A stretch of DNA of 64,000 nt from a virus (taxonomy: Duplodnaviria; Caudoviricetes): IMG/VR virus record IMGVR_UViG_3300005841_000939. One strand, 5' to 3'. Each line of letters starts with the position of its first letter. The first letter of the stretch is position 1. The position numbers were made by a program, and so were the translations under genes. This document shows positions 7,865-21,900 of this stretch, piece after piece. Below the pieces are notes generated by a model that saw only the letters and a list, made by a program, of their open reading frames with translations, ran no database searches and had not been told where the DNA came from.

Positions 7865-9180
7865 TGAAAACTATCACAGTAAATAATTTACTAGATACGC
7901 AATATAAAGCGTTCTCATTTTATACCCTAGAATTTCGCGCATTACCATATCTATCAGATGGATTGAAACCAGTTGCACGTAGATCAATTTGGATTGCAAA
8001 TAAATTAGCAAAAGCTGAATATGTAAAGGTTGCTAAACTTGCTGGTGCAGTTTTATCAATTCATCCACATGGATCCACATCTGTTGAAGATTGTATTTCA
8101 GGTATGGCCCAAGATTTTTGTGGTGCAAATAATGTAAATTATTTTCATGGCAAAGGTGCATTTGGTTCAAAGATTGCTGGTCCAGGTAACGCTATTGGCG
8201 CGGCACGTTATGTTTCTGTCAAGTTATCAGAAAACTTTCACAAGATCATGGGACGTGATTTTGATTTGGTTAAAACAAAACCTGGATATGATGATTCAGA
8301 AGTTGAACCTGTAAGTTTCTTACCAATTGTTCCAACTGTTTTATTGAACCCATTGCAAGGTATCGCTGTTGGTTTTGCATGTACTATCCTTCCAAGAAAA
8401 TTGGAAGATGTTATTCATTGTCAATTGGCACATTTGTCTGGAAAGGGATTCAGAGAACCAGATGTACATTATGAAGGATTCAAAGGTACAGTAACAAAGA
8501 CTGGCGATAATTCTTGGGAAACCAGGGGCGTGTTCACTCGCACTGGTCGTAAGTTGACTATTACTGAATTGCCAATTGGTTACACTAGAGAGTCATACAT
8601 ACGTGTTCTTGATGCATTAGAAGAAAAAGAAATCATTTCATCATACACTGATGACTGTACATCAGACTTTTTGTTTAGCGTAAACATCAAAGCAGAATTA
8701 AAAACTGATGAAGAAATTTACGAAAAATTCAAGTTAATTGGATCCTTATCAGAAAATATTACTTTAATAGATTTTAATGGTAAAGTCAGAAAAATGACTG
8801 TTACAGAAATCATCAAAGAATTCACTGATGTTCGTTTCAAAATATATTTTGAACGATTCAAAAAAGAATTCATGGATAATAGGGATGAATTTGAATTTAA
8901 ACGTGATCTTCTTAAGGTAATAAAGAAGGGTTTATTTAAGAAGTTTCCAGACTTAAAGAAAAATGAAATTGCTGATTTGTTGATAGAGAATGAAATTAAA
9001 GAAAAGAACATTGCTAGAATAATCCAAACCCCAATTTATAGATTTGGTAAGGACGAAGTTGATCGTCTAGAAGAAGAGTTACAGAAGTTGAAGACCCTAA
9101 TTGAATATTTAGTAACTCTTTGCAAGGATGAAGAATTGCGAAAAGTTGAATATGTTAAGGAATTAAAAGAATTGAGATAA
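7864..9180 (+). CDS. DNA topoisomerase II small subunit (GyrA/ParC-like; gp52)
   Basis: RALP..DGLKPVARR, HPHG, GKGAFGS, AARY with catalytic Tyr, PTVLLNPLQGIAVGF. Confidence 0.95.
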   Translation: MKTITVNNLLDTQYKAFSFYTLEFRALPYLSDGLKPVARRSIWIANKLAKAEYVKVAKLAGAVLSIHPHGSTSVEDCISGMAQDFCGANNVNYFHGKGAFGSKIAGPGNAIGAARYVSVKLSENFHKIMGRDFDLVKTKPGYDDSEVEPVSFLPIVPTVLLNPLQGIAVGFACTILPRKLEDVIHCQLAHLSGKGFREPDVHYEGFKGTVTKTGDNSWETRGVFTRTGRKLTITELPIGYTRESYIRVLDALEEKEIISSYTDDCTSDFLFSVNIKAELKTDEEIYEKFKLIGSLSENITLIDFNGKVRKMTVTEIIKEFTDVRFKIYFERFKKEFMDNRDEFEFKRDLLKVIKKGLFKKFPDLKKNEIADLLIENEIKEKNIARIIQTPIYRFGKDEVDRLEEELQKLKTLIEYLVTLCKDEELRKVEYVKELKELR

Positions 9181-9211: not shown

Positions 9212-10054
9212 ATGACCAATATTGTCTTTATTCAACCAATTTTTGCACCAGATGAGGGCATATCGGAGAGAAATGTAAATTCTCTTCAATCTATTAAAAA
9301 TTATATTGATGTGAATGGCCTAGATGGTTGCAATGTTCAGGTGATCATTGGTGGATGGGCTAGAACCGATGCATTGTGGCAAAAAATGGTAGCAAAATGT
9401 AAAGAAGTATTTGGTGCAACATACGAACCAATCCGATTTGATAAGAATTATGGTAAAGCAATAGTTGTTAATAAGCTTTATGAAGTTGCTCGCAAAAATG
9501 GTGTAAATCCTGATTTCTTGTTTACATGTGATTCAGATATTCTTTTTCAACCTGAACAAAAACATATGTTTTTGCGTTTAGTGGCAGCAGCTAATCATTT
9601 AACAGAAGTTAAAAAGATTCCATTTGGAATGATTTCATTAAATCAACTTTCTGGTAATTGTCATTGGCCAGTGTGCTATCAAAATCAGATTACATATACA
9701 ATGTCAGTTAATGCGACTGAAAAATTTGAAGAAAAAATGGTTTGGCCAAATACACCAAGTGGAATTGCTGGCGGCTGTCTCTTTTTAAGTCGCGCTTTTT
9801 GGGATACAGTTGGTGGATATAAAGTATTTGGCGTATATTCTGGTGATGATGCATATTTACTTTTAGAATGTGGAAAACGTGGTTGGTCATATCAAATGGC
9901 TGATACAATTTCAATTATCCATCCAAATGAAAATGATGCAGAATATTCAGCTTGGAAGCACAAAGTCTGTGGTCGTGATATGATGTCAGGATTTAAACAA
10001 AATATTGATAATATCATTCAAGAAGCAGATGCATTTTGGGATGCAAAGAAATGA
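9212..10054 (+). CDS. Glycosyltransferase, GT-A fold (GT2-like)
   Basis: NYGKA, DSD motif, IAGGCLFL...VGGY...YSGDD. Confidence 0.7.
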   Translation: MTNIVFIQPIFAPDEGISERNVNSLQSIKNYIDVNGLDGCNVQVIIGGWARTDALWQKMVAKCKEVFGATYEPIRFDKNYGKAIVVNKLYEVARKNGVNPDFLFTCDSDILFQPEQKHMFLRLVAAANHLTEVKKIPFGMISLNQLSGNCHWPVCYQNQITYTMSVNATEKFEEKMVWPNTPSGIAGGCLFLSRAFWDTVGGYKVFGVYSGDDAYLLLECGKRGWSYQMADTISIIHPNENDAEYSAWKHKVCGRDMMSGFKQNIDNIIQEADAFWDAKK

Positions 10055-10671
10055 AAATAGCAATCGTATGCAATGGATGGAAATGTCGTTTGAAAGAAAA
10101 TGGTACATTCATTGATTCATGTGATTATGTCATTCGCATGAATAGATTTAATTTAGAAGGATTTGAAAAATACGTTGGATCTAAAACAAGTGCAGTATCA
10201 CTAATGATAACTGGTGAAGGAACAACATCTGGAATTCTTGGACATGATCCTTTATTAAAATATGTACCAGACGCCAAACATATTTGGATTCCTGACAAAT
10301 ATCGTGCAGAGCATCAGCATCAAAGAAATAGGGCAGCGGATCATTATCGTAAATCATTAGATGATTTTTTATTTGTTGATGGCATAGTTTATGACAGACT
10401 TTATAATAAGATGCAATCATTATCTGAGGGTAAAGGTGTTAGACGAGAATGGTATTATCCTGATTCAGGGATGACTAATATAGAAACAGCTTTATATAGA
10501 TTTCCTAATTCACAAATATTTGTTTTTGGATTTGATCCTCATCGCAAACATCCATACAAATATTATTGGGACAACAGTGAAGATGGTTTTGCTGAAAATG
10601 AACATCCACAAGTAGCGGAATCAATTTTGTTTGATGAATATATAGAAAAGGGTTTAGTTCATGAGCTTTGA
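10051..10671 (+). CDS. GT29 (sialyltransferase)-like glycosyltransferase
   Basis: Sialylmotif-L-like IAIVCNG...IDSCDYVIRMN, motif-S-like PDSG...FVFGFD, motif-VS-like HPQVAE. Confidence 0.6.
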   Translation: MKIAIVCNGWKCRLKENGTFIDSCDYVIRMNRFNLEGFEKYVGSKTSAVSLMITGEGTTSGILGHDPLLKYVPDAKHIWIPDKYRAEHQHQRNRAADHYRKSLDDFLFVDGIVYDRLYNKMQSLSEGKGVRREWYYPDSGMTNIETALYRFPNSQIFVFGFDPHRKHPYKYYWDNSEDGFAENEHPQVAESILFDEYIEKGLVHEL

Positions 10672-11434
10672 TTTACGCCAAAGTACTTTCATAATTCCAT
10701 ATAAGTATGATACTCCTGAAAGACTTAGGAATATTAATGCTGTAGTGACCTATTTACAAAAGCATTTACAAACAAATATCATGGTTTGGGAAGAAGGTCC
10801 AAATTCAACGTACAAACCACATTCTGGCGTAGATTATACATACGTGCAGTCAACTGGTGAATTATTTCATCGTACTGCAATTCTTAATAAATTAACAAAG
10901 AAAACAGTCACCCCTGTTGTTTTTGTTTATGATACTGATGTTTTACTTGATCCTGCACAATATGTTGCTGCACAAGAAATAATTGTTTCTAGAGGGGCTG
11001 ATATGGTTTTTCCATATGATGGCCGTTTTTTAAATATTCATAATCCTGATATTATTAATTATGTAATACAAACCTTGTCAGTTGCGGGACTTAATAATGA
11101 AACGGATACATCAGTAAATCATCCTAATAGTGTTGGTGGAGCAATCGCTTTCAAGCGTGAATCATATTTTAGATTTGGTTTAGAGAATGAAAATTTTGTT
11201 AGCTGGGGCTGGGAAGATAATGAGAGAATAACACGAATTCAAAAGCTTGGTGGATCTATAATTCGCATTCGTGGTCCACTTTTCCACTTGAATCATCCAT
11301 CATCAACAAACAGTGCTAATACATCACATAAACCTTATTTTGATAATCAGCAAGAGTATATAAAAGTGGCAAACATGCCACCCGAACAATTACGGGCATA
11401 TATTAATTCATGGCCCTGGAGATTTGATGAATGA
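10661..11434 (+). CDS. GT7/GT2 (galactosyltransferase C-terminal-like) glycosyltransferase, paralog 1
   Basis: YDTD, SVGG, ENENFVSWGWED, LFHLNH. Confidence 0.8.
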   Translation: MSFDLRQSTFIIPYKYDTPERLRNINAVVTYLQKHLQTNIMVWEEGPNSTYKPHSGVDYTYVQSTGELFHRTAILNKLTKKTVTPVVFVYDTDVLLDPAQYVAAQEIIVSRGADMVFPYDGRFLNIHNPDIINYVIQTLSVAGLNNETDTSVNHPNSVGGAIAFKRESYFRFGLENENFVSWGWEDNERITRIQKLGGSIIRIRGPLFHLNHPSSTNSANTSHKPYFDNQQEYIKVANMPPEQLRAYINSWPWRFDE

Positions 11435-12207
11435 TTTCTTTAACTGATGTAACATTTACCATACCAGTTAAGTTTGATTCCAATGATAGAAAAAGGAATC
11501 TAGCAACTATAGTAGGGTATCTTCTTAAAAATTTCAATACAAATATAATAATTCTTGAAGATGGCCCTCATCATGCCGTTCAAGATGTATTGTCGGAGTA
11601 TAATAAAAAATATACTCACATATTTGTAAAAAAGACTAATAATGATTTGATGCATAGAACCATGTATTTAAATTTCATGGCAAAGGAAGCAAAGACACCA
11701 ATCATTGTTAATTATGATACTGATGTTTTATTGCCAATTGATCAATATGTTAAGTCGGTGGATTTAATTCGCAATGGAATAGCTGATGGTGTTTATCCTT
11801 ATGCTGGAAAATTTATCAATATAGAAGGTCAGCTTCAAGAGCTAGTTATAAAAAATAAATCTCTCATGGGCATCACGGAATCAAGTGGGCGCTGCTTGGC
11901 AGAAAATAGTTATGGTGGATGTGTTTTTTGGAATAAAGATAAATTCATACAAGGTGGAATGGAAAACGAAAACTTTATTTCTTGGGGACCTGAAGATTTG
12001 GAACGTTATATCAGATTTACAAAAATGGGATATAAGATTCAACGTATACCTGGTGTACTTTACCATTTGAATCATCAAAAGAGTTTAAATAGTGCAAATA
12101 TGCAGCACTCTGCATTTCAAAATAATGAAGCTGAATATCAAAAAGTTAAGAATATGCATCCTGAAGAGTTGAAAAATTATATAAAATCTTGGAAATGGAT
12201 GTCATGA
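11431..12207 (+). CDS. GT7/GT2 glycosyltransferase, paralog 2
   Basis: YDTD, GGCVF, GGMENENFISWGPED, LYHLNH. Confidence 0.8.
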   Translation: MISLTDVTFTIPVKFDSNDRKRNLATIVGYLLKNFNTNIIILEDGPHHAVQDVLSEYNKKYTHIFVKKTNNDLMHRTMYLNFMAKEAKTPIIVNYDTDVLLPIDQYVKSVDLIRNGIADGVYPYAGKFINIEGQLQELVIKNKSLMGITESSGRCLAENSYGGCVFWNKDKFIQGGMENENFISWGPEDLERYIRFTKMGYKIQRIPGVLYHLNHQKSLNSANMQHSAFQNNEAEYQKVKNMHPEELKNYIKSWKWMS

Positions 12208-13061
12208 ACGAAATACGATTAAGATTAATTGAATCTGATAATGGTGATTGGTCAACCCAATTTATTTCATGGAATGCTGGCAAAGATACTTATAAAAATA
12301 TAAAAATAGTAAATGATGATTCATACACACACTTGGCATTATTCAATGATGTGTACATGCAAACGAATATTCCCAAAGAAAATGTTGTTGGATTTGTAAC
12401 AGAGCCAAACTATTTTGAACGAATAAAAAAATATCAATCATTCGTTATAGAAAATATAAAAACATTTTATAGTTATAAATTGGATGAGCTGGATCCAATT
12501 CATTTCAAGTTTGGAATGTCATATTTGGGTCCAATAAAGCCACCAATTGATGCATCATTGCCACCAAAAACAAAAAAGATGTCTTTCCTAGCATCTAACA
12601 AGACATATTTTCCTGGTCATAGATTTCGGCACATATTAATTCATCATATTTTAAAAACCAATATGGATATTGACATTTATGGCCGTGGATTGGAAACATT
12701 GTACCATGATCCAAGAATTAAAGGTACATTAGGATATGACGAAAAGTCAAAAGCATACGATGATTATCAGTTTACTATTTCAATAGAGAATGATTTCCTA
12801 CCATATTGGGTTAGTGAAAAATATTGGGACCCTATTCTTTGTGGATGTATTCCACTATATTTGGGTGCTGAAAAAATTGATGAAATCTTTAGTGGACATA
12901 GTCACTATATCTTGAGAAAAGACACAGCATTTGACCAAATTGCTTGGATTTATAATAATTTTGACTCAATTAAAGATGATAAATCAGCAATTTTTAGTCA
13001 AAGTATCATCAAAAAAACACATAATATGCCTGAATTTATTTGGCAGCATTTTAACCATTAA
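12204..13061 (+). CDS. GT10 (alpha-1,3-fucosyltransferase)-like glycosyltransferase
   Basis: FTISIEN...YWVSEKYWDPILCGCIPLYLG fucosyltransferase motif. Confidence 0.7.
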   Translation: MNEIRLRLIESDNGDWSTQFISWNAGKDTYKNIKIVNDDSYTHLALFNDVYMQTNIPKENVVGFVTEPNYFERIKKYQSFVIENIKTFYSYKLDELDPIHFKFGMSYLGPIKPPIDASLPPKTKKMSFLASNKTYFPGHRFRHILIHHILKTNMDIDIYGRGLETLYHDPRIKGTLGYDEKSKAYDDYQFTISIENDFLPYWVSEKYWDPILCGCIPLYLGAEKIDEIFSGHSHYILRKDTAFDQIAWIYNNFDSIKDDKSAIFSQSIIKKTHNMPEFIWQHFNH

Positions 13062-13078
13062 TCATATAGAATACTTAC

Positions 13079-13972
13079 ATGGAAAATACATTCATTTGGA
13101 CTGAAATTTATAATTGCGGTAAGATTGCAAAAATTGCTTTGGAAAGTTTTTTCCATTGGCATCCTGATACACGTATTCATGTATATGGATCACAAGAAGA
13201 TTTTAAGTGGATCGCTGAATTTAAAGACAAAATAACTTTTTACGATATTCCAGAATTTATTAAAGAACGTTTTAGAACTGGACATTGGGGTACTGCATCA
13301 TTATGGGCTGCACTTATTCAAAGTCGTCCTGAAAGATGGTTCATACATTTTGATTCTGATGTTGTTTTCAGAAATGAATCACTTTCTGATTTGTATAAGG
13401 CTGTAGAAGAAGGACATAGTGTAGCTGGTCCAATTAGAAATTACAAACACAATCCAAATAATCGGGATGATTGCAGACATTTACCTGATCTATCACAAAC
13501 AGTATTTTTCGTTTTTGATAAAGAAAAAATCAAGAAATATGAATATGAAACATTTGCCAGAATGTGTCAAGGTACAAATAATCCATACAACCATCCAATG
13601 ATTGATTTCTTTGATCCAGTCATGTTTGACATCATTTATAATGGTGGAACTATTAAGCATTTGGAACATAATGACTACGGTGGATGCGATTATTTCGGTA
13701 AACGTATTACCAATAAATATGGTGAAATAAATCGTTGGATTGATTTTGGAGATAAATTAGCACATTTTAGTGCTGTAGGTTCTGGTATGAACTTTTATCA
13801 CCACGCAGACAAAATAGTCAATGTACCTATTGGTTATGTCAATTATGCAGTTGAACGTTATGCACTATATTGTAAAATATTTTACAACGAAGACTTGGGC
13901 ATACCAATTGATCAAGTAAAATATGGTCCATTTTTAAACTTGAGTCGCAATATGTGGTTTGGATTGGAATAA
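13079..13972 (+). CDS. Putative glycosyltransferase (GT-A, DSD motif), family unassigned
   Basis: IHFDSDVVF; located in the glycan island. Confidence 0.5.
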   Translation: MENTFIWTEIYNCGKIAKIALESFFHWHPDTRIHVYGSQEDFKWIAEFKDKITFYDIPEFIKERFRTGHWGTASLWAALIQSRPERWFIHFDSDVVFRNESLSDLYKAVEEGHSVAGPIRNYKHNPNNRDDCRHLPDLSQTVFFVFDKEKIKKYEYETFARMCQGTNNPYNHPMIDFFDPVMFDIIYNGGTIKHLEHNDYGGCDYFGKRITNKYGEINRWIDFGDKLAHFSAVGSGMNFYHHADKIVNVPIGYVNYAVERYALYCKIFYNEDLGIPIDQVKYGPFLNLSRNMWFGLE

Positions 13973-13975
13973 TAC

Positions 13976-14704
13976 ATGAGCGACTTAACTAATCCAAAAA
14001 TTCTCAATTTCCTATCAGTATTGAAATTCAATATAAGTAAAGAACCTTTTATTATTGATATTGGAACTGGACGTGGAGATTTTGTAAGTCACTGTCGTCA
14101 TGGTGGATTAGGTGTTCATGGTACAATTGGCCATTATGAAGTATTTGAACCAATTGATTATAACATTCATGATTTAGTAAAACGTTTCGCTAGTAATAAA
14201 GTTGTGGTAAATCCATTCGCAATTGATCTTGAAGATGGTGAAGGTACATTTCATCTTATAGGAAATAGAACACCAGAAGATGCAATGAGTAGTTTGCACA
14301 ATAGACCAGCATTTGCTAACTTTCCACGTCAAGAAATAACAGTAAAAAAGAAACGTATGGATACTTGGTGGTCTGAAAGATTTCCAAATGCTACCGCAGG
14401 AATTATTGATCTAATTAATATTGATACCGAGGGTAACGAACTCAGAGTATTGCAAAGTTTTGGTGCAATACTTGATGGCAATATTCATGCAAGAGCAATT
14501 CAATTCAAATATGGTTTATGTTGGAAAGATAGTGGAGCATCTATCAAAGATATGAAAGCTTTACTTGATAACAAAGGTTATGCTTTATTTGAACACCTTA
14601 CATTTGAAGGTGGCAGACCATTGAATATAATAGAAGACGATTACGAAACCAGAACACATGACGTATTTTTTGCTGTCAGCAAGAAACTTTGGAACATAAA
14701 ATGA
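13976..14704 (+). CDS. FkbM-family methyltransferase
   Basis: IIDIGTGRG, VFEP, SSL, IDLINIDTEGNELRVL, IQFKY. Confidence 0.8.
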   Translation: MSDLTNPKILNFLSVLKFNISKEPFIIDIGTGRGDFVSHCRHGGLGVHGTIGHYEVFEPIDYNIHDLVKRFASNKVVVNPFAIDLEDGEGTFHLIGNRTPEDAMSSLHNRPAFANFPRQEITVKKKRMDTWWSERFPNATAGIIDLINIDTEGNELRVLQSFGAILDGNIHARAIQFKYGLCWKDSGASIKDMKALLDNKGYALFEHLTFEGGRPLNIIEDDYETRTHDVFFAVSKKLWNIK

Positions 14705-15495
14705 TTGATCTAAAAGACTGTACACTCATAATTCCAGTAAGATTTGATGGCCCTGATCGCTTCAGAAATGTTGATATTGTATTGAATTACGTATCAAAAT
14801 TTTGTGATACAAATTTTCTTATCTGTGAACATGATGATGAAACGAAAATAAAACCAGAATACTTAGAAATTCCTAACGTTAAACATTTGTTTATTCCAAC
14901 AACCGATGCATTATTTTATAAAACAAAGTGCATAAATGATGCTGTTAAGCAAATTGAAACACCATTTTTTGCTATCTATGATGCTGATGTTATCATGCCG
15001 CCAGAGCAATATGAGCACACAATAAACGCTCTCCGTAATGCTCGCATGGACATTGTGTATCCATATGATGGCAATTTTTTAAATGTACCTATTTTCACGA
15101 TTGGAAAGATTCGTCGTGAACTTGATACTAGTTTTATCAATCAACATCACTGTAAGCCAGGATTTGGTATGCCTGAACTAAACACCAATAAAGGTTCAGT
15201 TGGTGGCTGTGTATTTTTCAATAAAGAAAGTTTTATTGAAGGTGGAATGATGAATGAAAACATGATTTCATATGGTCCAGAAGATGCAGAAGTATTTTGG
15301 AGATTTAGAGCATTAGATTATAAATTGCATCGTGTGAGTGGTCCATTGTATCATCTAACACATGCTCGCGGTCTAAATAGTGGAGAATCCCACCCAAATG
15401 CTGAAAAGAATCATGAAGAATTTCAACTTATCATGAGATTAGATAAAGAAGATTTGAAGGCATATGTAGCAACTTGGAAATGGACAAAAGAATGA
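14701..15495 (+). CDS. GT7/GT2 glycosyltransferase, paralog 3
   Basis: YDAD, SVGGCVF, GGMMNENMISYGPED, LYHLTH. Confidence 0.8.
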   Translation: MIDLKDCTLIIPVRFDGPDRFRNVDIVLNYVSKFCDTNFLICEHDDETKIKPEYLEIPNVKHLFIPTTDALFYKTKCINDAVKQIETPFFAIYDADVIMPPEQYEHTINALRNARMDIVYPYDGNFLNVPIFTIGKIRRELDTSFINQHHCKPGFGMPELNTNKGSVGGCVFFNKESFIEGGMMNENMISYGPEDAEVFWRFRALDYKLHRVSGPLYHLTHARGLNSGESHPNAEKNHEEFQLIMRLDKEDLKAYVATWKWTKE

Positions 15496-16283
15496 CTCAA
15501 GCAAAAATAAATCTAAAAGATTTAACTTTTACTATTCCTGTTAGATATGATACAGATGATAGAATCAGAAATCTGATAGCCCTTTTAAACTATTTGACGC
15601 ATTGGTTTGACACAAATATCATTGTTTGGGAAGAAGATAATGCACCTAAATTTCACACATTTCTTCAATCATACCCAAATGTAAAGTATGTTTTCAAACA
15701 AGCTGAAAATGATATTTTCTTTCGCACACGGATTTTAAATGATATGGCAAGAATGGCTGATACTCCATATATTGCTAATTATGATTGTGATTGTATTTTA
15801 TATCCTCAACAATATGTTGATGCAGTTAATCAATTAAGAAATAACACAAGTGATATTTGTACTGCATTTACATCTTTTACATTTGATGTTCCAAAACAAT
15901 TTCATTCTCGCATTATTCAAGAACGTAGTGTATTTTGGTTACATCCAAATCAATGCGTATGCGTAAATAGTACAGCAGTTGCAATGGGTGGTTGTGTTTT
16001 CTGGAATAAAGCAAAGTTCATTGAAGCTGGTATGGAAAATGAAAACTTTGTTTCTTGGGGTCCAGAAGATCAGGAACGTGTTCACCGCGCATTAAAATTG
16101 GGTATGCGTTATACCAGAGCACAAGGTATATTATTCCATTTGCAGCATGATCGTTTACAAAATAGTGGCGATGGTCATAGATTTATCACTCAAAACAATA
16201 AAGAGTTTGAGAAGATTAAACAAATGGATAGCGCACAATTGCGTTCTTATATTGCAACTTGGCCGTGGGTTTCGCGAAAGTAA
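15492..16283 (+). CDS. GT7/GT2 glycosyltransferase, paralog 4
   Basis: YDCD, GGCVF, AGMENENFVSWGPED, LFHLQH. Confidence 0.8.
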   Translation: MTQAKINLKDLTFTIPVRYDTDDRIRNLIALLNYLTHWFDTNIIVWEEDNAPKFHTFLQSYPNVKYVFKQAENDIFFRTRILNDMARMADTPYIANYDCDCILYPQQYVDAVNQLRNNTSDICTAFTSFTFDVPKQFHSRIIQERSVFWLHPNQCVCVNSTAVAMGGCVFWNKAKFIEAGMENENFVSWGPEDQERVHRALKLGMRYTRAQGILFHLQHDRLQNSGDGHRFITQNNKEFEKIKQMDSAQLRSYIATWPWVSRK

Positions 16284-17194
16284 GCAATAGTTTTATCTAA
16301 ACCAGAATCCAAATTTATTGTTGGGTTCCATTTAAGCTGGGCATTCGCTAATGTGATGTCCGGCTTTCTTTGTTTTGGATCATCCTTGGGGAGTGGTTCA
16401 AATACAATTTTTGATTGTGATCCAGTTTTTTGAATTATTTTTTCAGCCAATTCAAGCATTGTAAATTCACCTGGATTCCCAATATTGATTGGCCCATTTA
16501 CTTTTTTAGCCGATTGCATCATTTGAAATATACCTGCAATAGTATCATCAACGTAACCAAATGATCTTGTTTGTTGACCTTGACCATAGATGGTAATTGG
16601 CTTATTGTTTAATGCTTGCATGATGAAATTTGAAACAACTCTTCCATCATTTGCTGCCATTCTTGGGCCATATGTATTGAATAATCTAACGATTTTCCAT
16701 TCAAGTTTGTGCTTCTTACCAAATTCCATTATCATTGTTTCAGCAGCACGTTTACCTTCGTCATAACAACTACGCGGCCCTTGAGTATTTACATTACCCC
16801 AATATGTTTCGGGTTGAGGATGAATTGATGGATCACCATATACTTCGCTTGTTGATGTATATAAAAATTTAGCTCTATTGGTTTTGGCAATTTCTAATAT
16901 ATTTCTTGTACCTTTTACACATGTATCAAATGTGTAAAGTGGATCTTTCTGATACCAAATTGGACTTGCAGGGCACGCTAAATGATAAACTTGATCAATT
17001 GAACCAAAATCTATTGTATCGTTTACATCACCATTGATGAATATAAATTGTTTATTTCCTTCTAATTCTTTGATATTTTCATAACTACTGGAATAAAGAT
17101 TATCTAAACAAAGCACAGTATGTCCTTTGCTAATGAGTAATCTTGTTAAATTGCTGCCAAGAAAGCCAGCACCACCAGTAATTAGAATTCTCAT
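16247..17194 (-). CDS. uxs: UDP-glucuronate decarboxylase (UDP-xylose synthase)
   Basis: GGAGFLG, HLACPASP, STSEVYGDP, PQPETYWGNVN, RSCYDEGKRAAET, FNTYGPRM..DGRVVSNF, DDPKQRKPDI. Confidence 0.9.
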   Translation of the reverse strand: MRILITGGAGFLGSNLTRLLISKGHTVLCLDNLYSSSYENIKELEGNKQFIFINGDVNDTIDFGSIDQVYHLACPASPIWYQKDPLYTFDTCVKGTRNILEIAKTNRAKFLYTSTSEVYGDPSIHPQPETYWGNVNTQGPRSCYDEGKRAAETMIMEFGKKHKLEWKIVRLFNTYGPRMAANDGRVVSNFIMQALNNKPITIYGQGQQTRSFGYVDDTIAGIFQMMQSAKKVNGPINIGNPGEFTMLELAEKIIQKTGSQSKIVFEPLPKDDPKQRKPDITLANAQLKWNPTINLDSGLDKTIAYFRETHGQVAI

Positions 17195-18411
17195 GCCAAA
17201 ATAGCTTTCAATGTCTTGGCAAAGTATTTTATTTCTTCGTGGAGTACCAAGTGACTATTTCCAATGAAGAATCCACAACGATCAATTTCATCTGCAACAG
17301 ACATTGAACCAAATATTTCATGGTCCATGTACTTAATAACAGGATTTTTTGTAAAATTACCAGCAACAATAGGTCTACATTCAATTCCAGCGGCAACTAA
17401 CTTTGAAACGACCTCATCACGTTTTGATGATGATTTGCCAGTCAAAATTATTGAGAATCCAAAATAACTATGTGTTGATTCATTATGACTTAATTGAATT
17501 CTAATATCTTTAATATCATGGGTTTCACTCATAAATGATAAAGCATTGTTTTGGCGCTGTTCAATCAAACCATCTAATTTGTCTAATTGATGCAAGCCAA
17601 TAGCTGCATAGATTTCATTTGGACGAAGATTATATCCTGGCAATACGAATCTGAACAAATCATTAAACGGTACGCCATCTTTAACCCAAACATGGTTATT
17701 GACTGGCAATTCTCTTGTCCATCCGTGAGCACGAAGTGATAACATTATTTGATACAATTCTTCGTTGTTAGTGAGAGTTATACCACCTTCAACTGTGCAA
17801 ATGTGATGTGAGAAGAATGAAGAAAATGTTCCTAACAAACCATGTGCTCCACAATATGCATTTTCATAAGTTGCGCCCATTGATTCACAATTGTCCTCAA
17901 TAAGAATAAGATTATGAGCATCACAAAGCTTCTTTAAGCTTTTTAAATTGCATGGATTACCAAGCAAGTGAACAGCAAGAATAGCTTTTGTTTTTGATGT
18001 AATTGCAGCTTCAACTAAACCAGCATCCATATTCAAAGTTTTTGGATCAATATCAACAAATTTGAGCTTCAAATTATATTGTTGTAAAGGATAATATGTA
18101 GTACTCCAAGAAACTGCAGGGACGATAACTTCATCCCCTTCTTTTAATCCACCTTCTTTTTTGAACATCAATGCGCCAATAGCAAGAAGATTAGCAGATG
18201 ATCCACTATTGGACATGACTGCATATTTTGAACCAAATTTCTTAGCAAATTTCTCTTCAAACTGTTTTACGATTGGTCCCATGGTGCATCTACCAGACTT
18301 AATAACGTCAATAGCTGCATTTATTTCACGTTCATCCCATGATGAACTCGCCAATGGATAAACAGGGACACCTTTGTTTTTATCTTTAAAAATTAATTCT
18401 GTCTCAGACAT
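17191..18411 (-). CDS. colD: PLP-dependent GDP-4-keto-6-deoxymannose 3-dehydratase (ColD-type, DegT/DnrJ family)
   Basis: NSGSSANL, EDNCESMGA, and FSSFFSHHICTVEGG with His where aminotransferases have the PLP Lys. Confidence 0.82.
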   Translation of the reverse strand: MSETELIFKDKNKGVPVYPLASSSWDEREINAAIDVIKSGRCTMGPIVKQFEEKFAKKFGSKYAVMSNSGSSANLLAIGALMFKKEGGLKEGDEVIVPAVSWSTTYYPLQQYNLKLKFVDIDPKTLNMDAGLVEAAITSKTKAILAVHLLGNPCNLKSLKKLCDAHNLILIEDNCESMGATYENAYCGAHGLLGTFSSFFSHHICTVEGGITLTNNEELYQIMLSLRAHGWTRELPVNNHVWVKDGVPFNDLFRFVLPGYNLRPNEIYAAIGLHQLDKLDGLIEQRQNNALSFMSETHDIKDIRIQLSHNESTHSYFGFSIILTGKSSSKRDEVVSKLVAAGIECRPIVAGNFTKNPVIKYMDHEIFGSMSVADEIDRCGFFIGNSHLVLHEEIKYFAKTLKAILA

Positions 18412-18423
18412 ACCTTACTCCAT

Positions 18424-19218
18424 TTATGCCCATACGTATTTGAGCGGACCGTGACACATATTATAGACTATGCCATGATTTACTTCTGTTGATAATCTTC
18501 TATTCTTTAGGAATTCAGCATTCAAATAATCCAACGGATCAGTATTTGAGTGATGATTTCCATTTTCTGTTTGTACTTTGTTGTTTGTTGAACAAATACA
18601 TTTTTGATTTTCAAAGCAAATCATCAAGTTTTCACTTGGCATATTTCCACACATCCCACCTTCTAAACTGTTTGGTCCTCTAAAATTCATGTTATTGAGA
18701 TATGCCAAAGAAGCAGTTCTAAAGATTTGGAATGATGCGATTGATGGAGGATAGCCCCAATCACCAGATAAACCTTTCCAATTCCAACTTCTATCAGCAT
18801 TGAATTGTGGTTGTGGTTGTGATCTATTTTCTGTGAAACAAAAGTTTACATAAGGTGCTAAACGTGGGCTTACACAATAAATATCAGGATTTACTAAAAA
18901 AGCTCTTACTTCAGGTGAATCTAATGTGAAATGATTAATAAAAACGTCATCATCAACAATAAATGTTGTTAATGGTCTGCCACCATGACTATTATAAGCT
19001 GCAATGGTATCTTGCCTGAAATTTGTTTCAAAAATCCATTTAAATTCTGGATGTAAGGCTTTGCAACGTTCATAACCAATTCTGAAAAAATCATTACTAT
19101 ATTTGTAGATGATTGTATATTGTTGATCTTTCCAACCCATGAAATATTTTTTCAAAGTTGACAATGTCAAATCAAGTTGTGCTGCTCTATCTTTGGAAAA
19201 AATTATTACATTAATCAT
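18424..19218 (-). CDS. Putative GT-A glycosyltransferase
   Basis: IIFSKDRAAQL, FIVDDDVF; in the sugar operon. Confidence 0.6.
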   Translation of the reverse strand: MINVIIFSKDRAAQLDLTLSTLKKYFMGWKDQQYTIIYKYSNDFFRIGYERCKALHPEFKWIFETNFRQDTIAAYNSHGGRPLTTFIVDDDVFINHFTLDSPEVRAFLVNPDIYCVSPRLAPYVNFCFTENRSQPQPQFNADRSWNWKGLSGDWGYPPSIASFQIFRTASLAYLNNMNFRGPNSLEGGMCGNMPSENLMICFENQKCICSTNNKVQTENGNHHSNTDPLDYLNAEFLKNRRLSTEVNHGIVYNMCHGPLKYVWA

Positions 19219-19220
19219 TA

Positions 19221-19925
19221 TTAGATCCTCTCACCGATCATATAAAATTGGCCACCATATAAATGATCAATTTTCTTTATGGTAAATTTGACGCCAGGAA
19301 TTTGTAAATCTTTGAAATATGTTGTATTATCAATACCTTCAATTTCTTCTTGGAATGCAATCAAATACTTTTTAGCTTTAACTTTACTAAATACTTCATT
19401 TCTAAATGTTGCAGGACATTCAGAAATAGACCACATTGCTATAAACAAATCAACTTCTTTTTCAGGGATGCTAGTATTTAATAGTGTTGTATTATCAATA
19501 CCTTCCAAGTAATATTCTTGAATAAGATTTAAGGTTGGGAAGTCAAAAATAGTGTAATCGGCTGGTCCAATAACTTGATCAAAGACTTTTCTCAAACATC
19601 CATACCCACCACCAAATTCAAAAACACTTTTTACATCAGAATAATCTGATAATTGGCTCAAATGATATGCCTGATGAATTCCAGTATTTGATTGTTCTTT
19701 CAAGTTTGCAATAAATTTTGGTGGTAAAGCACCATATTCTAAGCCAATGTAATTATTAACTGTAATTTCCATTGTATCAGTCAAAGGAACCCATGACCTA
19801 AAATTTCTAATATCTCCATTGATAATTAAATTAAGAAGTTGAACTTGCTTCTCTTGCCAATATTGAATTGATTGTAAGTTAATTTCTTTCAGCAACTCTT
19901 GTGCTTTTTGTTTATAGTCGGTCAC
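19221..19925 (-). CDS. Putative sugar O-methyltransferase (SAM-dependent)
   Basis: VFEFGGGYG, IFDFP, DLFIAMWSISE; GTG start overlaps the fcl stop (GTGA). Confidence 0.7.
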   Translation of the reverse strand: MTDYKQKAQELLKEINLQSIQYWQEKQVQLLNLIINGDIRNFRSWVPLTDTMEITVNNYIGLEYGALPPKFIANLKEQSNTGIHQAYHLSQLSDYSDVKSVFEFGGGYGCLRKVFDQVIGPADYTIFDFPTLNLIQEYYLEGIDNTTLLNTSIPEKEVDLFIAMWSISECPATFRNEVFSKVKAKKYLIAFQEEIEGIDNTTYFKDLQIPGVKFTIKKIDHLYGGQFYMIGERI

Positions 19926-20851
19926 TTGATGTTTTCCTTGAACCAATTGTAAGTCTTAATAATACCATCTTCTAGAGAAATTTTTGATTTCCAGCCAAGA
20001 TTTGCGAGCTTTGTTACATCCATTATTTTTCTTGGCATGCCGTCTGGTCTGCTAGAATCCCAATGAATTTCGCCAGTGTATCCAACAATACGTTTTATTG
20101 TTTCTGATAACTCTTTGATTGTACAATCTGTACCAGAACCTACATTAATATGTTCTGAATTGTCATAATTGTGCATTAAAAATATGCAAGCATCAGCAAC
20201 ATCTTCAACGTGTAGGAATTCTCTACGGGCAGAGCCAGTTCCTAAACATTGTACAAATTCTTTTTTTTCAATTTTTGCTTCATGAAATTTTCTGATCAAT
20301 CCGCTCATAACATGTGATGTTTTTAGGTCAAAATTATCATTTTGACCATATAAATTGCATGGCATACATGAAATAAAATTGTCATTATATTGCTTTTTAT
20401 ATGCTGCACATAGCTTCAAACCAGCAATTTTAGCAAGCGCATACATTTCATTAGTTGGTTCAACTGGTCCTGTCAATAAATATTCTTCTTTCATTGGCTG
20501 AGGGCATTCTCTAGGATAAATACAAGAGCTTCCCATAAATAAAAGCTTTTTAACTTTCATTTCATGTGCCGATTGAATTACGTTATTCTGCATCATTAGA
20601 TTTTCATAGCCAAACACTGCTGGAGAACTGATGTTGGCCATAATACCACCAACTTTTGCAGCTAAAAAGAAAATGTGAGATGGTTCTATGGTTGCGAATA
20701 CTTCTCTAACTTCTTTCTGTTCCAACAAATTCAAATGAGAACTTCTTGGAGAATAAACATTTTCATAACCTTGACTTTTTAGTTTTGAAATAAGGGTTTT
20801 GCCAACCATTCCATTACCACCAAGAACTAGGATATTAGATGTTTTATGCAT
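19922..20851 (-). CDS. fcl: GDP-L-fucose synthase / GDP-colitose synthase (Fcl/WcaG/ColC family)
   Basis: GGNGMVG, AAKVGGI, GSSCIYP, YALAK, MPCNLYG, SHV, GTGSARREFLHVED, DGMPRK. Confidence 0.92.
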   Translation of the reverse strand: MHKTSNILVLGGNGMVGKTLISKLKSQGYENVYSPRSSHLNLLEQKEVREVFATIEPSHIFFLAAKVGGIMANISSPAVFGYENLMMQNNVIQSAHEMKVKKLLFMGSSCIYPRECPQPMKEEYLLTGPVEPTNEMYALAKIAGLKLCAAYKKQYNDNFISCMPCNLYGQNDNFDLKTSHVMSGLIRKFHEAKIEKKEFVQCLGTGSARREFLHVEDVADACIFLMHNYDNSEHINVGSGTDCTIKELSETIKRIVGYTGEIHWDSSRPDGMPRKIMDVTKLANLGWKSKISLEDGIIKTYNWFKENIK

Positions 20852-21900
20852 TAGATACCTGCTTTCGCTAAATCAGAATTTACCATATCAGCAACTAAAT
20901 CATCAAATGAAAATTCAGGTTGCCAGCCAAGAACAGTTTTGGCCTTTGTTGGATTTCCAAGTAAATAATCAACTTCAGATGGTCTATAATATTTAGGATT
21001 GACTTGTACGACAACTTCGCCATCTACAATACCTTTTTCAGAGTCTTTATGACCTTCCCATGCAATTGTTTTTCCAATATGCTTAAACGATTTCTCTATG
21101 AATTCTTTAACAGTATGTGTTTCACCAGTAGCAATCACATAATCATCTGGTTTATTTTGTTGAAGGATAAGCCATTGTGCTCTTACATAGTCTTTTGCAT
21201 GCCCCCAATCACGGTAAGCATCCATATTGCCTATTTGTAAAGCCTTTGTATTTTTTGGATCTTTGACCCATTTAGCAAGCCATAATGTTATTTTTCTTGT
21301 AACAAAGGTTTCACCACGTCTTGGGCCTTCATGATTAAAAAGGAGCCCATTACATCCAAAAATGTCATACGCTTCACGATAATTGCGTGTAATCCAATAT
21401 GCATAGATTTTTGCACAACCATAAGGTGAACGTGGATGAAATGGCGATGTTTCCACATATCCGCCTTCTGGCATATTATAAGCCATACCTCCAAACATTT
21501 CACTGGTACTGGCTTGATAAACTTTAGTGGTTGGTGAGAAGTTTTTTACTGCTTCTAAGATATAAAGTGACCCTAAACCATCAACCTGTGCTGTAAAGTT
21601 TGGAATATCAAAGCTTACCTTAACATGTGACTGTGCAGCTAAGTTATAAATTTCGTTAGGCTTTAGATCGTAAATGAGTTTTCCTATAATATTTGAGTCA
21701 ACCATATCCCCATAATGCAGGAAGAACGTCTTGCCAAAAATCTCAGAATCATTTATGATATGATCAATTCGGTCAGTATTAATTGTTGAGGCTCTACGTA
21801 TAATTCCATGGACTTCATATCCTTTACTCAAAAGAAGTTCAAGAAGATAGGAACCATCTTGTCCTGTTATGCCCGTTATCAAAGCGCGCTTAGTTGCCAT
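20851..21900 (-). CDS. gmd: GDP-mannose 4,6-dehydratase
   Basis: ITGITGQDGSYL, YNLAAQSHVKVSF, QASTSEMFG, FHPRSPYGCAK, FNHEGPRRGETFVTRKI, RDWGHAKDYV. Confidence 0.97.
   Translation of the reverse strand: MATKRALITGITGQDGSYLLELLLSKGYEVHGIIRRASTINTDRIDHIINDSEIFGKTFFLHYGDMVDSNIIGKLIYDLKPNEIYNLAAQSHVKVSFDIPNFTAQVDGLGSLYILEAVKNFSPTTKVYQASTSEMFGGMAYNMPEGGYVETSPFHPRSPYGCAKIYAYWITRNYREAYDIFGCNGLLFNHEGPRRGETFVTRKITLWLAKWVKDPKNTKALQIGNMDAYRDWGHAKDYVRAQWLILQQNKPDDYVIATGETHTVKEFIEKSFKHIGKTIAWEGHKDSEKGIVDGEVVVQVNPKYYRPSEVDYLLGNPTKAKTVLGWQPEFSFDDLVADMVNSDLAKAGI

What the first reader, a model, noticed from the sequence alone, without database searches (positions are those of the whole stretch)
9212..21900. 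12.7-kb phage glycan-building island: nine GT-like genes, two methyltransferases and its own nucleotide-sugar supply
Seen: a plus-strand GT array continuing from the replication operon (GT2-like, GT29-like, four GT7-like, GT10-like, an unassigned GT, FkbM MTase), converging on a minus-strand operon (gmd, fcl/colC, O-MTase, GT, colD, uxs). Knowledge: these supply GDP-fucose/GDP-colitose and UDP-xylose. LPS-type clusters are known in some cyanophages, and giant viruses glycosylate their own capsids and fibres. Inference: autonomous synthesis of a complex methylated oligosaccharide on virion proteins, the host envelope or modified DNA. No flippase, polymerase or initiating transferase is visible, which argues against a standard O-antigen pathway.
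Basis: partly seen in the sequence, partly recalled or inferred. Interest (0 to 1): 0.8.

Follow-up and report, generated by a model that had tools for sequence, protein, structure and literature searches.

The report
Jumbo-phage sugar-chain assembly island
A giant uncultured soil phage carries a conserved 12.7-kb block of 15 genes that make rare activated sugars (fucose, probably colitose, xylose) and join them, with methylation, into a complex sugar chain; the chain most likely coats the phage particle or repaints the host surface, and similar untested blocks are already known from marine cyanophages.

Summary
Window 9212-21900 contains 15 tightly packed genes in two convergent operons. Nine are glycosyltransferase (GT)-like: one GT2-like, one GT29-like, four GT7C-type paralogs, one GT10-like, one GT8-like GT-A, and one GT74-like fucosyltransferase-type. 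Two are methyltransferases. Four are nucleotide-sugar enzymes: Gmd, an Fcl-type synthase, ColD with its catalytic His, and UDP-xylose synthase.

It is not a host fragment. GC and GC3 match the flanking T4-like replication genes. Eight or more related metagenomic phages, some on contigs of 0.37-0.42 Mb, carry the same core right after the topoisomerase II medium-subunit gene. The island occurs there in both orientations.

The "own sugar supply" covers only late steps. No GDP-mannose, UDP-glucuronate or CMP-sugar synthesis gene lies in the 89 kb I could read.

All 15 proteins look soluble, and there is no initiating transferase, flippase or polymerase.

Ranking of the target:
- Glycosylation of phage (virion) proteins in the cytoplasm: about 0.42.
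- Remodelling of host envelope glycan: about 0.33.
- DNA glycosylation: unlikely.

Homologous, functionally untested clusters exist in T4-like cyanophages such as S-SCSM1. This is therefore a new variant of a known kind. Its novel parts are the ColD (colitose) branch, UXS, and the GT74- and GT29-like enzymes. Other first-stage notes on overlapping windows flagged the same stretch.

The parts
9212..10054 (+). g01, GT2-like GT-A glycosyltransferase (DxD = CDSD)
   Evidence: No Pfam hit. The Atlas model matches GT2 clusters at TM 0.67-0.73 and the protein starts at the ATG at 9212. Orthologs of 40-47% identity lie in L052, L053 and L077.
10051..10671 (+). g02, GT29 (sialyltransferase-like) glycosyltransferase without a membrane anchor
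   Evidence: Pfam PF00777, 54.7 bits. Sialylmotif regions align to ST3Gal-I. A 52% identical ortholog sits in L052. No transmembrane segment.
10661..11434 (+). g03, GT-A glycosyltransferase with a Glyco_transf_7C-type C-terminal region (paralog 1)
   Evidence: PF02709, 28.3 bits. Paralog alignment. The profile hits chondroitin synthase and B4GalT7/1.
11431..12207 (+). g04, GT7C-type GT-A (paralog 2)
   Evidence: PF02709 30.6 bits and PF10111 29.2 bits. It is 54% identical to L005:9188-10000 and 36-38% to the cyanophage genes in P-TIM68, S-SCSM1 and S-CAM7.
12204..13061 (+). g05, GT10-like (alpha-1,3-fucosyltransferase family) transferase
   Evidence: PF00852, 35 bits. It aligns to core alpha-1,3-FucT A, PDB 9s6a. 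It is conserved at 36-45% identity in L005, L043, L044, L050, L052 and L054.
13079..13972 (+). g06, GT-A glycosyltransferase of an unnamed family; GT8-like, possibly a xylosyltransferase
   Evidence: At least 283 homologs, none with a Pfam domain. Invariant H-x-D-x-D motif. AF2 pLDDT 95.7. Top fold hits are XXYLT1, LARGE1, GXYLT1 and LgtC, at TM only 0.45-0.50.
13976..14704 (+). g07, FkbM-family SAM methyltransferase
   Evidence: PF05050, 38.6 bits; TIGR01444, 39.1 bits against a cut-off of 37.7. FkbM genes also lie in the islands of L043 and L044.
14701..15495 (+). g08, GT7C-type GT-A (paralog 3)
   Evidence: PF02709, 25.8 bits; alignment.
15492..16283 (+). g09, GT7C-type GT-A (paralog 4); its 3' end overlaps uxs by 37 bp
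   Evidence: PF02709, 25.9 bits; alignment; sequence.
16247..17194 (-). uxs, UDP-glucuronate decarboxylase (UDP-xylose synthase)
   Evidence: 331 bits (E 6e-98) to human UXS1, while the next family scores 128 bits. It follows colD in L043 and L044 at 49-51% identity.
17191..18411 (-). colD, GDP-4-keto-6-deoxy-D-mannose 3-dehydratase (PMP-dependent)
   Evidence: 429 bits to E. coli ColD over the full length. The catalytic His of the SHH motif is kept where aminotransferases have Lys. Relatives are 54-69% identical.
18424..19218 (-). g12, GT74-like GT-A transferase; predicted GDP-fucose/GDP-colitose-dependent alpha-1,2-fucosyl-type transferase
   Evidence: AF2 pLDDT 95.4. TM 0.88 and E 7e-20 to PgtA residues 470-769, against 0.52 or less for everything else. 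That PgtA domain is GT74. The gene always lies between fcl and colD. About 30% of 80 viral loci with a g12 relative have gmd or fcl within 10 kb.
19221..19946 (-). g13, class-I SAM methyltransferase, sugar-O-methyltransferase-like (start TTG 19946 or GTG 19925)
   Evidence: TIGR04371 NanM-like, 32 bits, below its cut-off of 44. The Atlas model has a methyltransferase fold and neighbours a sugar O-methyltransferase cluster.
19922..20851 (-). fcl, GDP-L-fucose synthase type 3,5-epimerase/4-reductase (possibly also reduces the ColD product)
   Evidence: NF047922, 437 bits against a cut-off of 500. 317 bits to E. coli Fcl structures. 48% identical to E. coli Fcl and 39% to O55 ColC.
20851..21900 (-). 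gmd, GDP-mannose 4,6-dehydratase
   Evidence: TIGR01472, 500.6 bits against a cut-off of 415. PF16363, 442 bits. Relatives are 57-68% identical.
7864..9180 (+). Anchor gene: T4-type topoisomerase II medium subunit (gp52-like), the conserved left neighbour of the island
   Evidence: PF00521, 250 bits. tblastn hits T4-like phages. The island follows this gene in L043, L044, L052 and L077.

Best explanation
This is a resident two-operon glycan assembly line of a roughly 380-kb T4-like rhizosphere phage.

Shown by sequence:
- The minus-strand operon takes host GDP-mannose through Gmd to GDP-4-keto-6-deoxymannose. That intermediate goes to GDP-L-fucose via the Fcl-type enzyme, or via ColD to GDP-4-keto-3,6-dideoxymannose.
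- UXS turns host UDP-glucuronate into UDP-xylose.

Inferred:
- The same Fcl-type enzyme reduces the ColD product to GDP-colitose.
- Nine soluble glycosyltransferases add sugars one at a time in the cytoplasm, and two SAM methyltransferases cap them. The fucosyl-type enzymes are the GT74-like transferase encoded inside the donor operon and the GT10-like one. The GT8-like enzyme is a possible xylosyltransferase. The rest are four GT7C-type paralogs, one GT2-like and one GT29-like enzyme.
- No lipid-carrier initiation, flipping or polymerisation step is encoded, so the acceptor is most likely a phage protein. The result would be a virion surface glycan, as in chloroviruses and mycobacteriophages.
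For: Enzyme identities rest.

The island is phage-resident and selected:
- GC is 0.30-0.37 and GC3 is 0.17-0.24, as in the adjacent replication genes.
- The same core (gmd, fcl, g12, colD, usually uxs, GT10, GT7C) lies directly after topo II-M in L043, L044 and L052, and after primase in L005, L050 and L053.
- The gene order inside each operon is kept, and both island orientations occur. The window and L077 differ from the rest.
- ColD and g12 homologs sit on contigs of 365-415 kb.

Support for a cytoplasmic, carrier-independent mode:
- No island protein has a hydrophobic 19-mer above 1.33 on the Kyte-Doolittle scale, and none matches a Wzx, Wzy or phosphoglycosyl-transferase family.
- The nearest structural relative of g12 is the GT74 domain of PgtA, which fucosylates the cytoplasmic protein Skp1.

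Precedent:
- PBCV-1 glycosylates its capsid in the cytoplasm with soluble, early-expressed viral GTs plus viral GMD/GMER. That glycan contains fucose, xylose and a dimethylated sugar.
- Virion glycoproteins were detected in the 385-kb jumbo phage XacN1.
- Mycobacteriophage capsid and tail glycosylation is cited.
Against: - No acceptor was identified. The structural genes of this phage lie outside the 89 kb I could read, so no Ser/Thr/Asn-rich virion protein could be linked to the island.
- The island lies in the replication region, not in a late or structural operon. No T4-type late promoter is nearby.
- Colitose is otherwise known from O-antigens (established knowledge; E. coli O55 cluster).
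- GT10-, GT7C/GT2- and GT8-like enzymes are typical LPS/LOS enzymes.
- Authors of the homologous cyanophage clusters read them as cell-wall/LPS genes.
- The Fcl-type enzyme is not a ColC ortholog, so colitose output is inferred only.
Confidence: 0.42

Rival explanations
1. The island remodels the host envelope. The soluble phage GTs decorate host lipid-linked intermediates (lipid A-core or undecaprenyl-PP-glycans) on the cytoplasmic face. Host MsbA/Wzx/ABC exporters and ligase then display a fucose/colitose/xylose-bearing, methylated epitope. That epitope would block superinfection or stop progeny being lost on debris during the long infection of a jumbo phage.
For: - The GT families and colitose are typical of O-antigen and LOS synthesis. 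The E. coli O55 cluster holds colC, colD, an alpha-1,2-FucT-like enzyme and GT2.
- A g12 homolog lies in a bacterial (Planctomycetota MAG) glycan cluster with GT2, GT4 and FkbM.
- The island continues the early/middle replication operon.
- Homologous cyanophage clusters are interpreted this way in the literature.
- GT content varies among relatives the way O-antigen loci vary.
Against: - No initiating transferase, flippase, polymerase, ligase or any membrane protein is in the island or its relatives. The phage enzymes would have to fit host-specific acceptors.
- The host is unknown, so the presence of LPS is not established.
- The cyanophage interpretation is itself untested.
Confidence: 0.33
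2. The island makes another product: a free or secreted oligosaccharide, a glycolipid, or glycosylation of a non-virion phage or host cytoplasmic protein (Skp1-like regulatory glycosylation).
For: - The enzymes are soluble and no acceptor is known.
- The g12 fold twin, PgtA, modifies a regulatory cytoplasmic protein.
- NodZ-like and FkbM genes in relatives recall Nod-factor-type decoration in rhizosphere bacteria.
Against: No chitin-oligomer synthase, exporter or acyltransferase is present. Nine transferases is a large number for a regulatory mark. Nothing in the data points specifically to this reading.
Confidence: 0.15
3. The glycan is attached to phage DNA as a base hypermodification that protects against restriction.
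For: - T4-like phages glycosylate modified cytosines, sometimes with chains of sugars.
- A ThyA homolog lies 13 kb downstream (34902-35888), and ThyA homologs can be 5-hydroxy-dCMP synthases.
- The phage clearly invests in DNA modification, with 7-deazaguanine genes.
Against: - All characterised DNA glycosyltransferases are GT-B enzymes that use UDP-sugars and are clustered with the base-modifying enzyme, a nucleotide kinase and a dCTPase.
- The island has GT-A, GT10 and GT29 types and GDP-sugar donors, and no such neighbours.
- The ThyA homolog scores above the thymidylate-synthase equivalog cut-off, 348.7 against 327.
- The better DNA-GT candidates are the two GT4-like genes beside folE and the dpdA-like gene, upstream of the window.
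Confidence: 0.05
4. The block is a host fragment joined to phage DNA by mis-assembly, or a recent host-derived insertion (IMG/VR labels the record 'provirus').
For: - The record is classed as provirus with 42% completeness.
- The genes resemble bacterial O-antigen genes.
- One ENA contig ends about 170 bp after g12.
Against: - GC and GC3 are uniform with the flanks.
- A Logan contig bridges the right border (18456-25000) without any difference. A third study's run holds identical short contigs from island and flanks at like depth.
- At least eight related phage contigs carry the island at the same locus between T4-type replication genes.
- The identical proteins occur on a 379,560-bp contig.
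- The 'provirus' label is most simply an artefact of trimming a jumbo-phage contig.
Confidence: 0.02

Closest known systems
'LPS / cell-wall synthesis and modification' gene clusters of T4-like cyanophages, e.g. Synechococcus phage S-SCSM1 ORF113-135 (PMC9602691); also P-TIM68, S-CAM7, S-B05, S-H68 and S-T4
   Same: A block of about 13 kb in a T4-like myovirus with gmd and fcl, several soluble GTs including fucosyltransferase types, and methyltransferases. The GT7C-type GT-A genes are true homologs at 32-38% identity, Gmd is 59% and Fcl 51% identical. The soil relatives L043 and L044 even share the AsnB-like, methyltransferase and NodZ-like genes. The function is untested in both.
   Different: S-SCSM1 has a GDP-mannose 3,5-epimerase and a mannose-6-P isomerase. 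It has no ColD, UXS, or GT74-like g12 (no tblastn hit in L047). No phage in the 50,697-record collection has a ColD above 35% identity. The soil island is two convergent operons at a fixed site behind topo II-M, a gene absent from that cyanophage region. The host and habitat (rhizosphere) also differ.
Chlorovirus PBCV-1 capsid (Vp54) glycosylation machinery: GMD, GMER, A064R, A111/114R, A075L (PMC5408694, PMC7826918)
   Same: A virus-encoded GDP-fucose pathway plus soluble, cytoplasmic GTs and a methyltransferase activity. The glycan contains fucose, xylose and methylated sugar. The genes are expressed early although the target is a late protein.
   Different: PBCV-1 is a eukaryotic virus whose genes are dispersed rather than in one island. 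It has no ColD or UXS. No sequence-level orthology of the GTs was shown here. The acceptor is proven there and unknown here.
GDP-colitose pathway of Gram-negative O-antigens (E. coli O55/O111 gmd, colD/wbdK, colC)
   Same: Gmd and ColD are clear orthologs. ColD is about 58% identical and keeps the catalytic His. A fucosyltransferase-like transferase is encoded beside them.
   Different: The phage reductase is Fcl-type, not ColC-type. There is no manB/manC, wzx, wzy or wzz. The phage adds UXS and nine GTs.
Dictyostelium/Toxoplasma PgtA GT74 domain (Skp1 alpha-1,2-fucosyltransferase)
   Same: The fold of g12 matches at TM 0.88 and 21% identity, a GT-A fucosyltransferase type, and both are cytoplasmic and soluble.
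   Different: g12 is a single-domain protein. No Skp1, prolyl hydroxylase or Gnt1 partner was found, and there is no 2OG-oxygenase in the 89 kb. The donor may be colitose rather than fucose. Activity is untested.
Mycobacteriophage virion O-glycosylation (Che8, Corndog, Myrna; Freeman et al. 2023, known here only through its citation in PMC12619734)
   Same: Phage-encoded GTs proposed or shown to put glycans on capsid and tail proteins.
   Different: Those phages have two to four GTs located near structural genes, no nucleotide-sugar pathway and actinobacterial hosts. The paper itself could not be read.

Membership tests
GDP-L-fucose de novo pathway | GDP-mannose 4,6-dehydratase (Gmd) | tested here: met
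   TIGR01472, 500.6 bits, above the equivalog cut-off of 415.
GDP-L-fucose de novo pathway | GDP-4-keto-6-deoxymannose 3,5-epimerase/4-reductase (Fcl/WcaG) | tested here: met
   317 bits to E. coli Fcl structures and 48% identity over the full length. The NCBIfam score of 437 is just under the strict cut-off of 500.
GDP-L-colitose pathway | ColD: a PMP-dependent 3-dehydratase with an active-site His in place of the aminotransferase Lys | tested here: met
   429 bits to E. coli ColD. The alignment shows SSFFSHHICTVEGG against SSFYSHHIATMEGG, and the H188N mutant entry differs exactly at that position.
GDP-L-colitose pathway | A dedicated ColC-type GDP-colitose synthase | tested here: not met
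   The only epimerase/reductase is closer to Fcl (48%, 311 bits) than to O55 ColC (39%, 216 bits). Whether it accepts the 3-deoxy substrate cannot be tested here.
UDP-xylose synthesis | UDP-glucuronate decarboxylase (UXS) | tested here: met
   331 bits to human UXS1, against 128 bits for the next SDR family.
UDP-xylose synthesis | UDP-glucose 6-dehydrogenase to supply UDP-glucuronate | tested here: not met
   PF03721 is absent from the 89-kb record. About 290 kb of the genome was not available.
Wzx/Wzy- or ABC-dependent O-antigen/capsule locus | Initiating phosphoglycosyl transferase, flippase or ABC exporter, and polymerase | tested here: not met
   None of the 15 island proteins hits such a family or has a transmembrane-like segment. 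The islands of L043 and L044 also lack them.
CAZy GT74 (alpha-1,2-fucosyltransferase, PgtA type) | GT-A fold specifically like the PgtA fucosyltransferase domain | tested here: met
   TM 0.88 and E 7e-20 to PgtA 470-769; all other hits are at TM 0.52 or less. Domain identity comes from PMC6939170.
CAZy GT74 (alpha-1,2-fucosyltransferase, PgtA type) | GDP-fucose-dependent alpha-1,2 transfer | not testable with these tools
   Only association is available. The gene sits inside the GDP-sugar operon, and gmd or fcl lies within 10 kb in about 30% of 80 viral loci.
CAZy GT29 | Sialyltransferase-family domain with sialylmotifs | tested here: met
   PF00777, 54.7 bits against a cut-off of 23, covering profile positions 58-260 of 272. 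The L and S motif regions align. The donor (a CMP-ulosonic acid) is untested, and no CMP-sugar synthetase is in the 89 kb.
CAZy GT10 | Fucosyltransferase C-terminal catalytic region | tested here: met
   PF00852, 35 bits against a cut-off of 23.9; alignment to 9s6a.
Phage DNA glycosylation systems (T4 / RB69 / DLP3 type) | GT-B DNA glycosyltransferases clustered with a modified-pyrimidine synthase, a nucleotide kinase and a dCTPase | tested here: not met
   The island GTs are GT-A, GT10 and GT29 types with GDP-sugar supply. ThyA at 34902-35888 passes the thymidylate-synthase cut-off.
Virus-encoded virion glycosylation (chlorovirus / mycobacteriophage type) | A glycosylated virion protein that depends on the viral GTs | not testable with these tools
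   The structural genes of this phage lie outside the readable 89 kb. No virions or proteomics exist for this uncultured phage.

The most novel reading that the evidence does not exclude
A clade of roughly 0.2-0.4-Mb T4-like soil phages runs a chlorovirus-style, host-independent cytoplasmic protein-glycosylation factory. It coats its virions with a branched, methylated glycan containing fucose, the O-antigen sugar colitose, and xylose. This would be the first bacterial-virus counterpart of giant-virus capsid glycosylation and the first colitose found outside LPS.
Probability: 0.35. Interest if true: 0.8.

Novelty: new variant of a known kind. Interest (0 to 1): 0.6.

Why it matters
Large sugar-gene islands are among the biggest unexplained investments in big phage genomes. 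For cyanophages they have been labelled 'LPS genes' for twenty years without a test.

This soil clade offers a well-defined conserved core: Gmd, Fcl, a GT74-like transferase, ColD, UXS, GT10 and GT7C-type GTs. It sits at a fixed locus and the enzymes are predicted soluble, which makes the question directly testable with recombinant enzymes and with cultured cyanophage homologs.

If the glycan sits on virions, phage particles in soil carry bacterial-type rare sugars. That would affect adsorption, stability, grazing and immune recognition, and it would parallel giant viruses. If it sits on the host, it is a large-scale, phage-driven serotype conversion during lytic infection.

Tried and rejected
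- Megablast of the island against 50,697 phage records found no match.
- Sigma-70-like promoter and terminator scans were not enriched over shuffles. The T4 late motif TATAAATA occurs twice in the window, neither copy heading an island operon, and is under-represented. Expression timing could therefore not be inferred.
- The look-up of sequencing runs listed no RNA holder.
- Read laying on Logan contigs gave fragmentary cover. The left border was not bridged by any listed contig, and parts without cover are not evidence.
- A look-up of the phage's own g12 protein returned a contig without DNA, so the rest of the roughly 380-kb genome, including the structural genes, could not be read.
- I followed an earlier first-reader lead about GT9-like genes beside a Ser-rich fibre. 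PF01075 is absent from relatives G001 and G002, with only a sub-threshold hit in G003. The lead remains untested in this genome.
- A Skp1-like pathway was considered. No 2OG-Fe(II) oxygenase or prolyl hydroxylase is in the 89 kb.
- The first MAFFT alignment suggested that g06 lacks a DxD motif. The family alignment showed an invariant H-x-D-x-D, so that idea was dropped.
- The ColC assignment was rejected after comparison with E. coli O55 ColC and Fcl.
- The Freeman et al. 2023 paper is not held.
- A full-text search for 'colitose' plus 'phage' found no report of a phage-encoded colitose pathway among 23 papers.
- The host could not be inferred. The nearest cellular ColD homologs (57-61% identity) are scattered over Armatimonadota, Methylophilus and Rhodoglobus.

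Full report
**Context.** The window is the last 64 kb of an 89,295-bp IMG/VR record labelled 'provirus', with a CheckV completeness estimate of 42%. The surrounding genes form a T4-type replication and nucleotide module. Upstream of the window lie SbcCD, family-B DNA polymerase, UvsX and a DnaB-like helicase. Inside the window lie topoisomerase II large and medium subunits, clamp loader, primase, thymidylate synthase, RNA ligase, NAD synthesis genes and an NAD-dependent ligase. The polymerase and topoisomerase are only 31-35% identical to any cultured phage. Proteins encoded in the island occur letter for letter on a 379,560-bp contig. Earlier notes of this scan describe the genome as a roughly 380-kb T4-like rhizosphere phage. 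The DNA is found in rhizosphere metagenomes.

**Observation.** Between 9212 and 21900 there are fifteen genes and little else.
- Nine lie on the + strand directly after the topo II medium-subunit gene, with a 31-nt gap.
- Six lie on the - strand, starting from a 61-bp divergent spacer at 21901-21961.
- Junctions are mostly 1-11-nt overlaps, many of the ATGA type, or gaps of 2-17 nt.
- The two operons converge and their last genes overlap by 37 bp.

**Donor operon.**
- Gmd passes its equivalog cut-off.
- The next gene is a GDP-fucose-synthase-type enzyme.
- ColD is about 58% identical to the crystallised E. coli enzyme. It keeps the His that distinguishes 3-dehydratases from aminotransferases.
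- The last gene is a clear UDP-xylose synthase, 331 bits to human UXS1 against 128 for the next family.
- Between fcl and colD lie a class-I SAM methyltransferase resembling sugar O-methyltransferases and g12.

I compared the Fcl-type protein with both paralogs of E. coli O55:H7. It is 48% identical to Fcl and 39% to ColC, and those two are 39% identical to each other. GDP-fucose synthesis is therefore well supported. GDP-colitose synthesis requires that this enzyme also reduces the ColD product. That is an inference, although ColD would otherwise have no use.

**Transferases.**
- Pfam places g02 in GT29 (54.7 bits) and g05 in GT10. It places g03, g04, g08 and g09 in the Glyco_transf_7C/GT2 group.
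- The four GT7C-type genes are paralogs, 33-42% identical, with a conserved DxD. Their profile finds chondroitin synthase and beta-4-galactosyltransferases.
- g01 is a GT2-like GT-A by the Atlas model.
- g06 had no family. Its alignment shows an invariant H-x-D-x-D. A confident AF2 model (pLDDT 95.7) is a GT-A fold whose best, though modest, matches are GT8-type xylosyltransferases: XXYLT1, LARGE1 and GXYLT1. This fits the UDP-xylose supply but is only a lead.
- g12 (pLDDT 95.4) matches the C-terminal domain of Dictyostelium PgtA at TM 0.88 and E 7e-20, far above all other hits. That domain is the founding GT74 alpha-1,2-fucosyltransferase, which acts on the cytoplasmic protein Skp1.
- Among 80 viral loci with a g12 relative, 24-27 have gmd or fcl within 10 kb. 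This supports a GDP-6-deoxyhexose donor.
- g07 is an FkbM-family methyltransferase.

The count of nine GT-like genes, two methyltransferases and four nucleotide-sugar enzymes is therefore correct.

**Limits of 'its own supply'.** The 89-kb record has no UDP-glucose dehydrogenase, no NDP-sugar pyrophosphorylase and no CMP-sugar synthetase. The phage converts host GDP-mannose and UDP-glucuronate, and it relies on the host for every other donor. About 290 kb of the genome was not available to me.

**Not a host fragment.**
- GC (0.30-0.37) and GC3 (0.17-0.24) of the island genes equal those of the neighbouring replication genes.
- A contig of an independent run bridges the right border without a difference. 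A third study's run contains identical pieces of island and flanks at similar depth. The left border was not bridged.
- Conservation is the stronger evidence. In L043, L044 and L052, where topo II-M is 48-53% identical, the order is topo II-M, gmd, fcl, (methyltransferase), g12, colD, uxs. A convergent GT array follows.
- L005, L050, L053 and L054 have the same core after primase.
- In L052 the GT operon reads g01, GT29, GT7C, GT7C, GT10, which is exactly the window's order.
- The window and L077 (topo II-M 63% identical) have the GT operon next to topo II-M instead. The whole island therefore exists in two orientations.
- ColD homologs of 61-69% identity lie on contigs of 365,913 to 415,091 bp.
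- The 'provirus' label is best explained as over-trimming of a jumbo-phage contig.

**What it does.** All fifteen proteins lack transmembrane-like segments. Neither this island nor those of L043 and L044 encodes an initiating phosphoglycosyl transferase, flippase, ABC exporter, polymerase or ligase. The glycan is therefore built stepwise in the cytoplasm on a pre-existing acceptor. Two acceptors are plausible.

1. Phage proteins, which I favour slightly. Chlorovirus PBCV-1 glycosylates its capsid in the cytoplasm with soluble, early-expressed viral GTs and viral GMD/GMER, producing a glycan with fucose, xylose and dimethylated sugar. Glycoproteins were detected in virions of the 385-kb phage XacN1. 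Mycobacteriophages glycosylate capsid and tail (cited). The closest fold relative of g12 is a protein-glycan fucosyltransferase. An unverified first-reader note reports a Ser-rich fibre with adjacent GTs elsewhere in this genome, and I could not test it.

2. Host lipid-linked intermediates, with export by host machinery. Colitose and the GT10, GT2/7 and GT8 families are typical of O-antigen and LOS. A g12 homolog sits in a bacterial glycan cluster. The island continues an early/middle operon. The homologous cyanophage clusters are read as LPS or cell-wall genes, without a test.

DNA glycosylation is unlikely. The characterised systems use GT-B enzymes and UDP-sugars, clustered with a ThyA-like base-modifying enzyme, a kinase and a dCTPase. 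The window's ThyA passes the thymidylate-synthase cut-off. The phage's evident DNA modification is 7-deazaguanine.

**Comparison with the known.** The nearest described thing is the roughly 13-kb sugar cluster of T4-like cyanophages. S-SCSM1 ORF113-135 holds gmd, fcl, GDP-mannose 3,5-epimerase, alpha-1,2- and NodZ-type fucosyltransferases, GTs, an AsnB-like gene and methyltransferases. The GT7C-type GTs are homologous at 32-38% identity. The soil relatives L043 and L044 share the AsnB-like, methyltransferase and NodZ-like genes.

What is new here:
- The ColD branch. No ColD above 35% identity exists in 50,697 phage records, and no paper on a phage colitose pathway turned up among 23 hits.
- UXS, and the GT74-like and GT29-like enzymes.
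- The fixed locus with two orientations.
- The setting in 0.2-0.4-Mb soil phages.

I therefore class it as a new variant of a known, functionally unresolved kind.

**Verdict.** That this is a real, conserved phage glycan factory has a confidence of about 0.95. For the target, my estimates are virion or phage protein 0.42, host envelope 0.33, other product 0.15, DNA 0.05 and artefact 0.02.

Noticed in passing
L003:8664-10593 (upstream of the window); window 7028-7864 and 25223-26089: A likely 7-deazaguanine DNA-modification set. It comprises GTP cyclohydrolase I (169 bits), a DpdA-like TGT-family protein, a QueE-like radical-SAM protein and a QueC-like protein, dispersed through the replication region.
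   Followed up: partly
L003:6150-7178 and L003:7238-8623: Two GT-B (GT4-like, Glycos_transf_1) genes sit immediately before folE and the dpdA-like gene. Known phage DNA glycosyltransferases are GT-B. These genes, rather than the island, would be the candidates for any sugar on DNA. A glycosylated deazaguanine would be new.
   Followed up: no
window 48066-49973 (-): A solitary 635-aa gene on the opposite strand has a strong GT71 alpha-mannosyltransferase domain (Mannosyl_trans3, 124 bits). It is a tenth GT-A-type gene outside the island and brings the record to at least 12 GT genes in 89 kb.
   Followed up: partly
window 16247-16283: The last genes of the two convergent operons (g09 and uxs) overlap by 37 bp at their 3' ends with no terminator between them. 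Transcription from either side must run into the other operon.
   Followed up: no
window 21901-21961: The 61-bp divergent spacer between gmd and the next + strand gene contains the perfect palindrome TAGAATAATTCTA. It offers a TAGAAT -10-like hexamer on both strands and could be a shared divergent promoter or operator.
   Followed up: no
L045:1-20840 (364,522-bp JGI contig): Another huge-phage contig has a g12 homolog inside a different sugar island. That island holds an RpiB-cytidylyltransferase fusion, a PfkB kinase, a class II aldolase, a transaldolase, cupins, FkbM and SDRs, which suggests synthesis of another rare activated sugar.
   Followed up: no
L005:12252-16637: Next to the smaller island of a related 80-kb contig lies an ORF of more than 1462 aa with an internal cytidylyltransferase-like domain (phrog_395). 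It may be a multi-domain sugar-activating and transferring protein.
   Followed up: no
whole record (G000) and G001: IMG/VR classes this 89-kb piece and the 214-kb relative as 'provirus', although they are T4-like lytic-type genomes and the same genes lie on a 379,560-bp contig. This is probably CheckV host-region trimming triggered by bacterial-like gene blocks in jumbo phages.
   Followed up: partly
window 35889-36743; L043:617-1510; L044:1-697: A histone-deacetylase-family (PF00850) gene is conserved in this phage clade. In the relatives it lies right after the topo II large-subunit gene.
   Followed up: no
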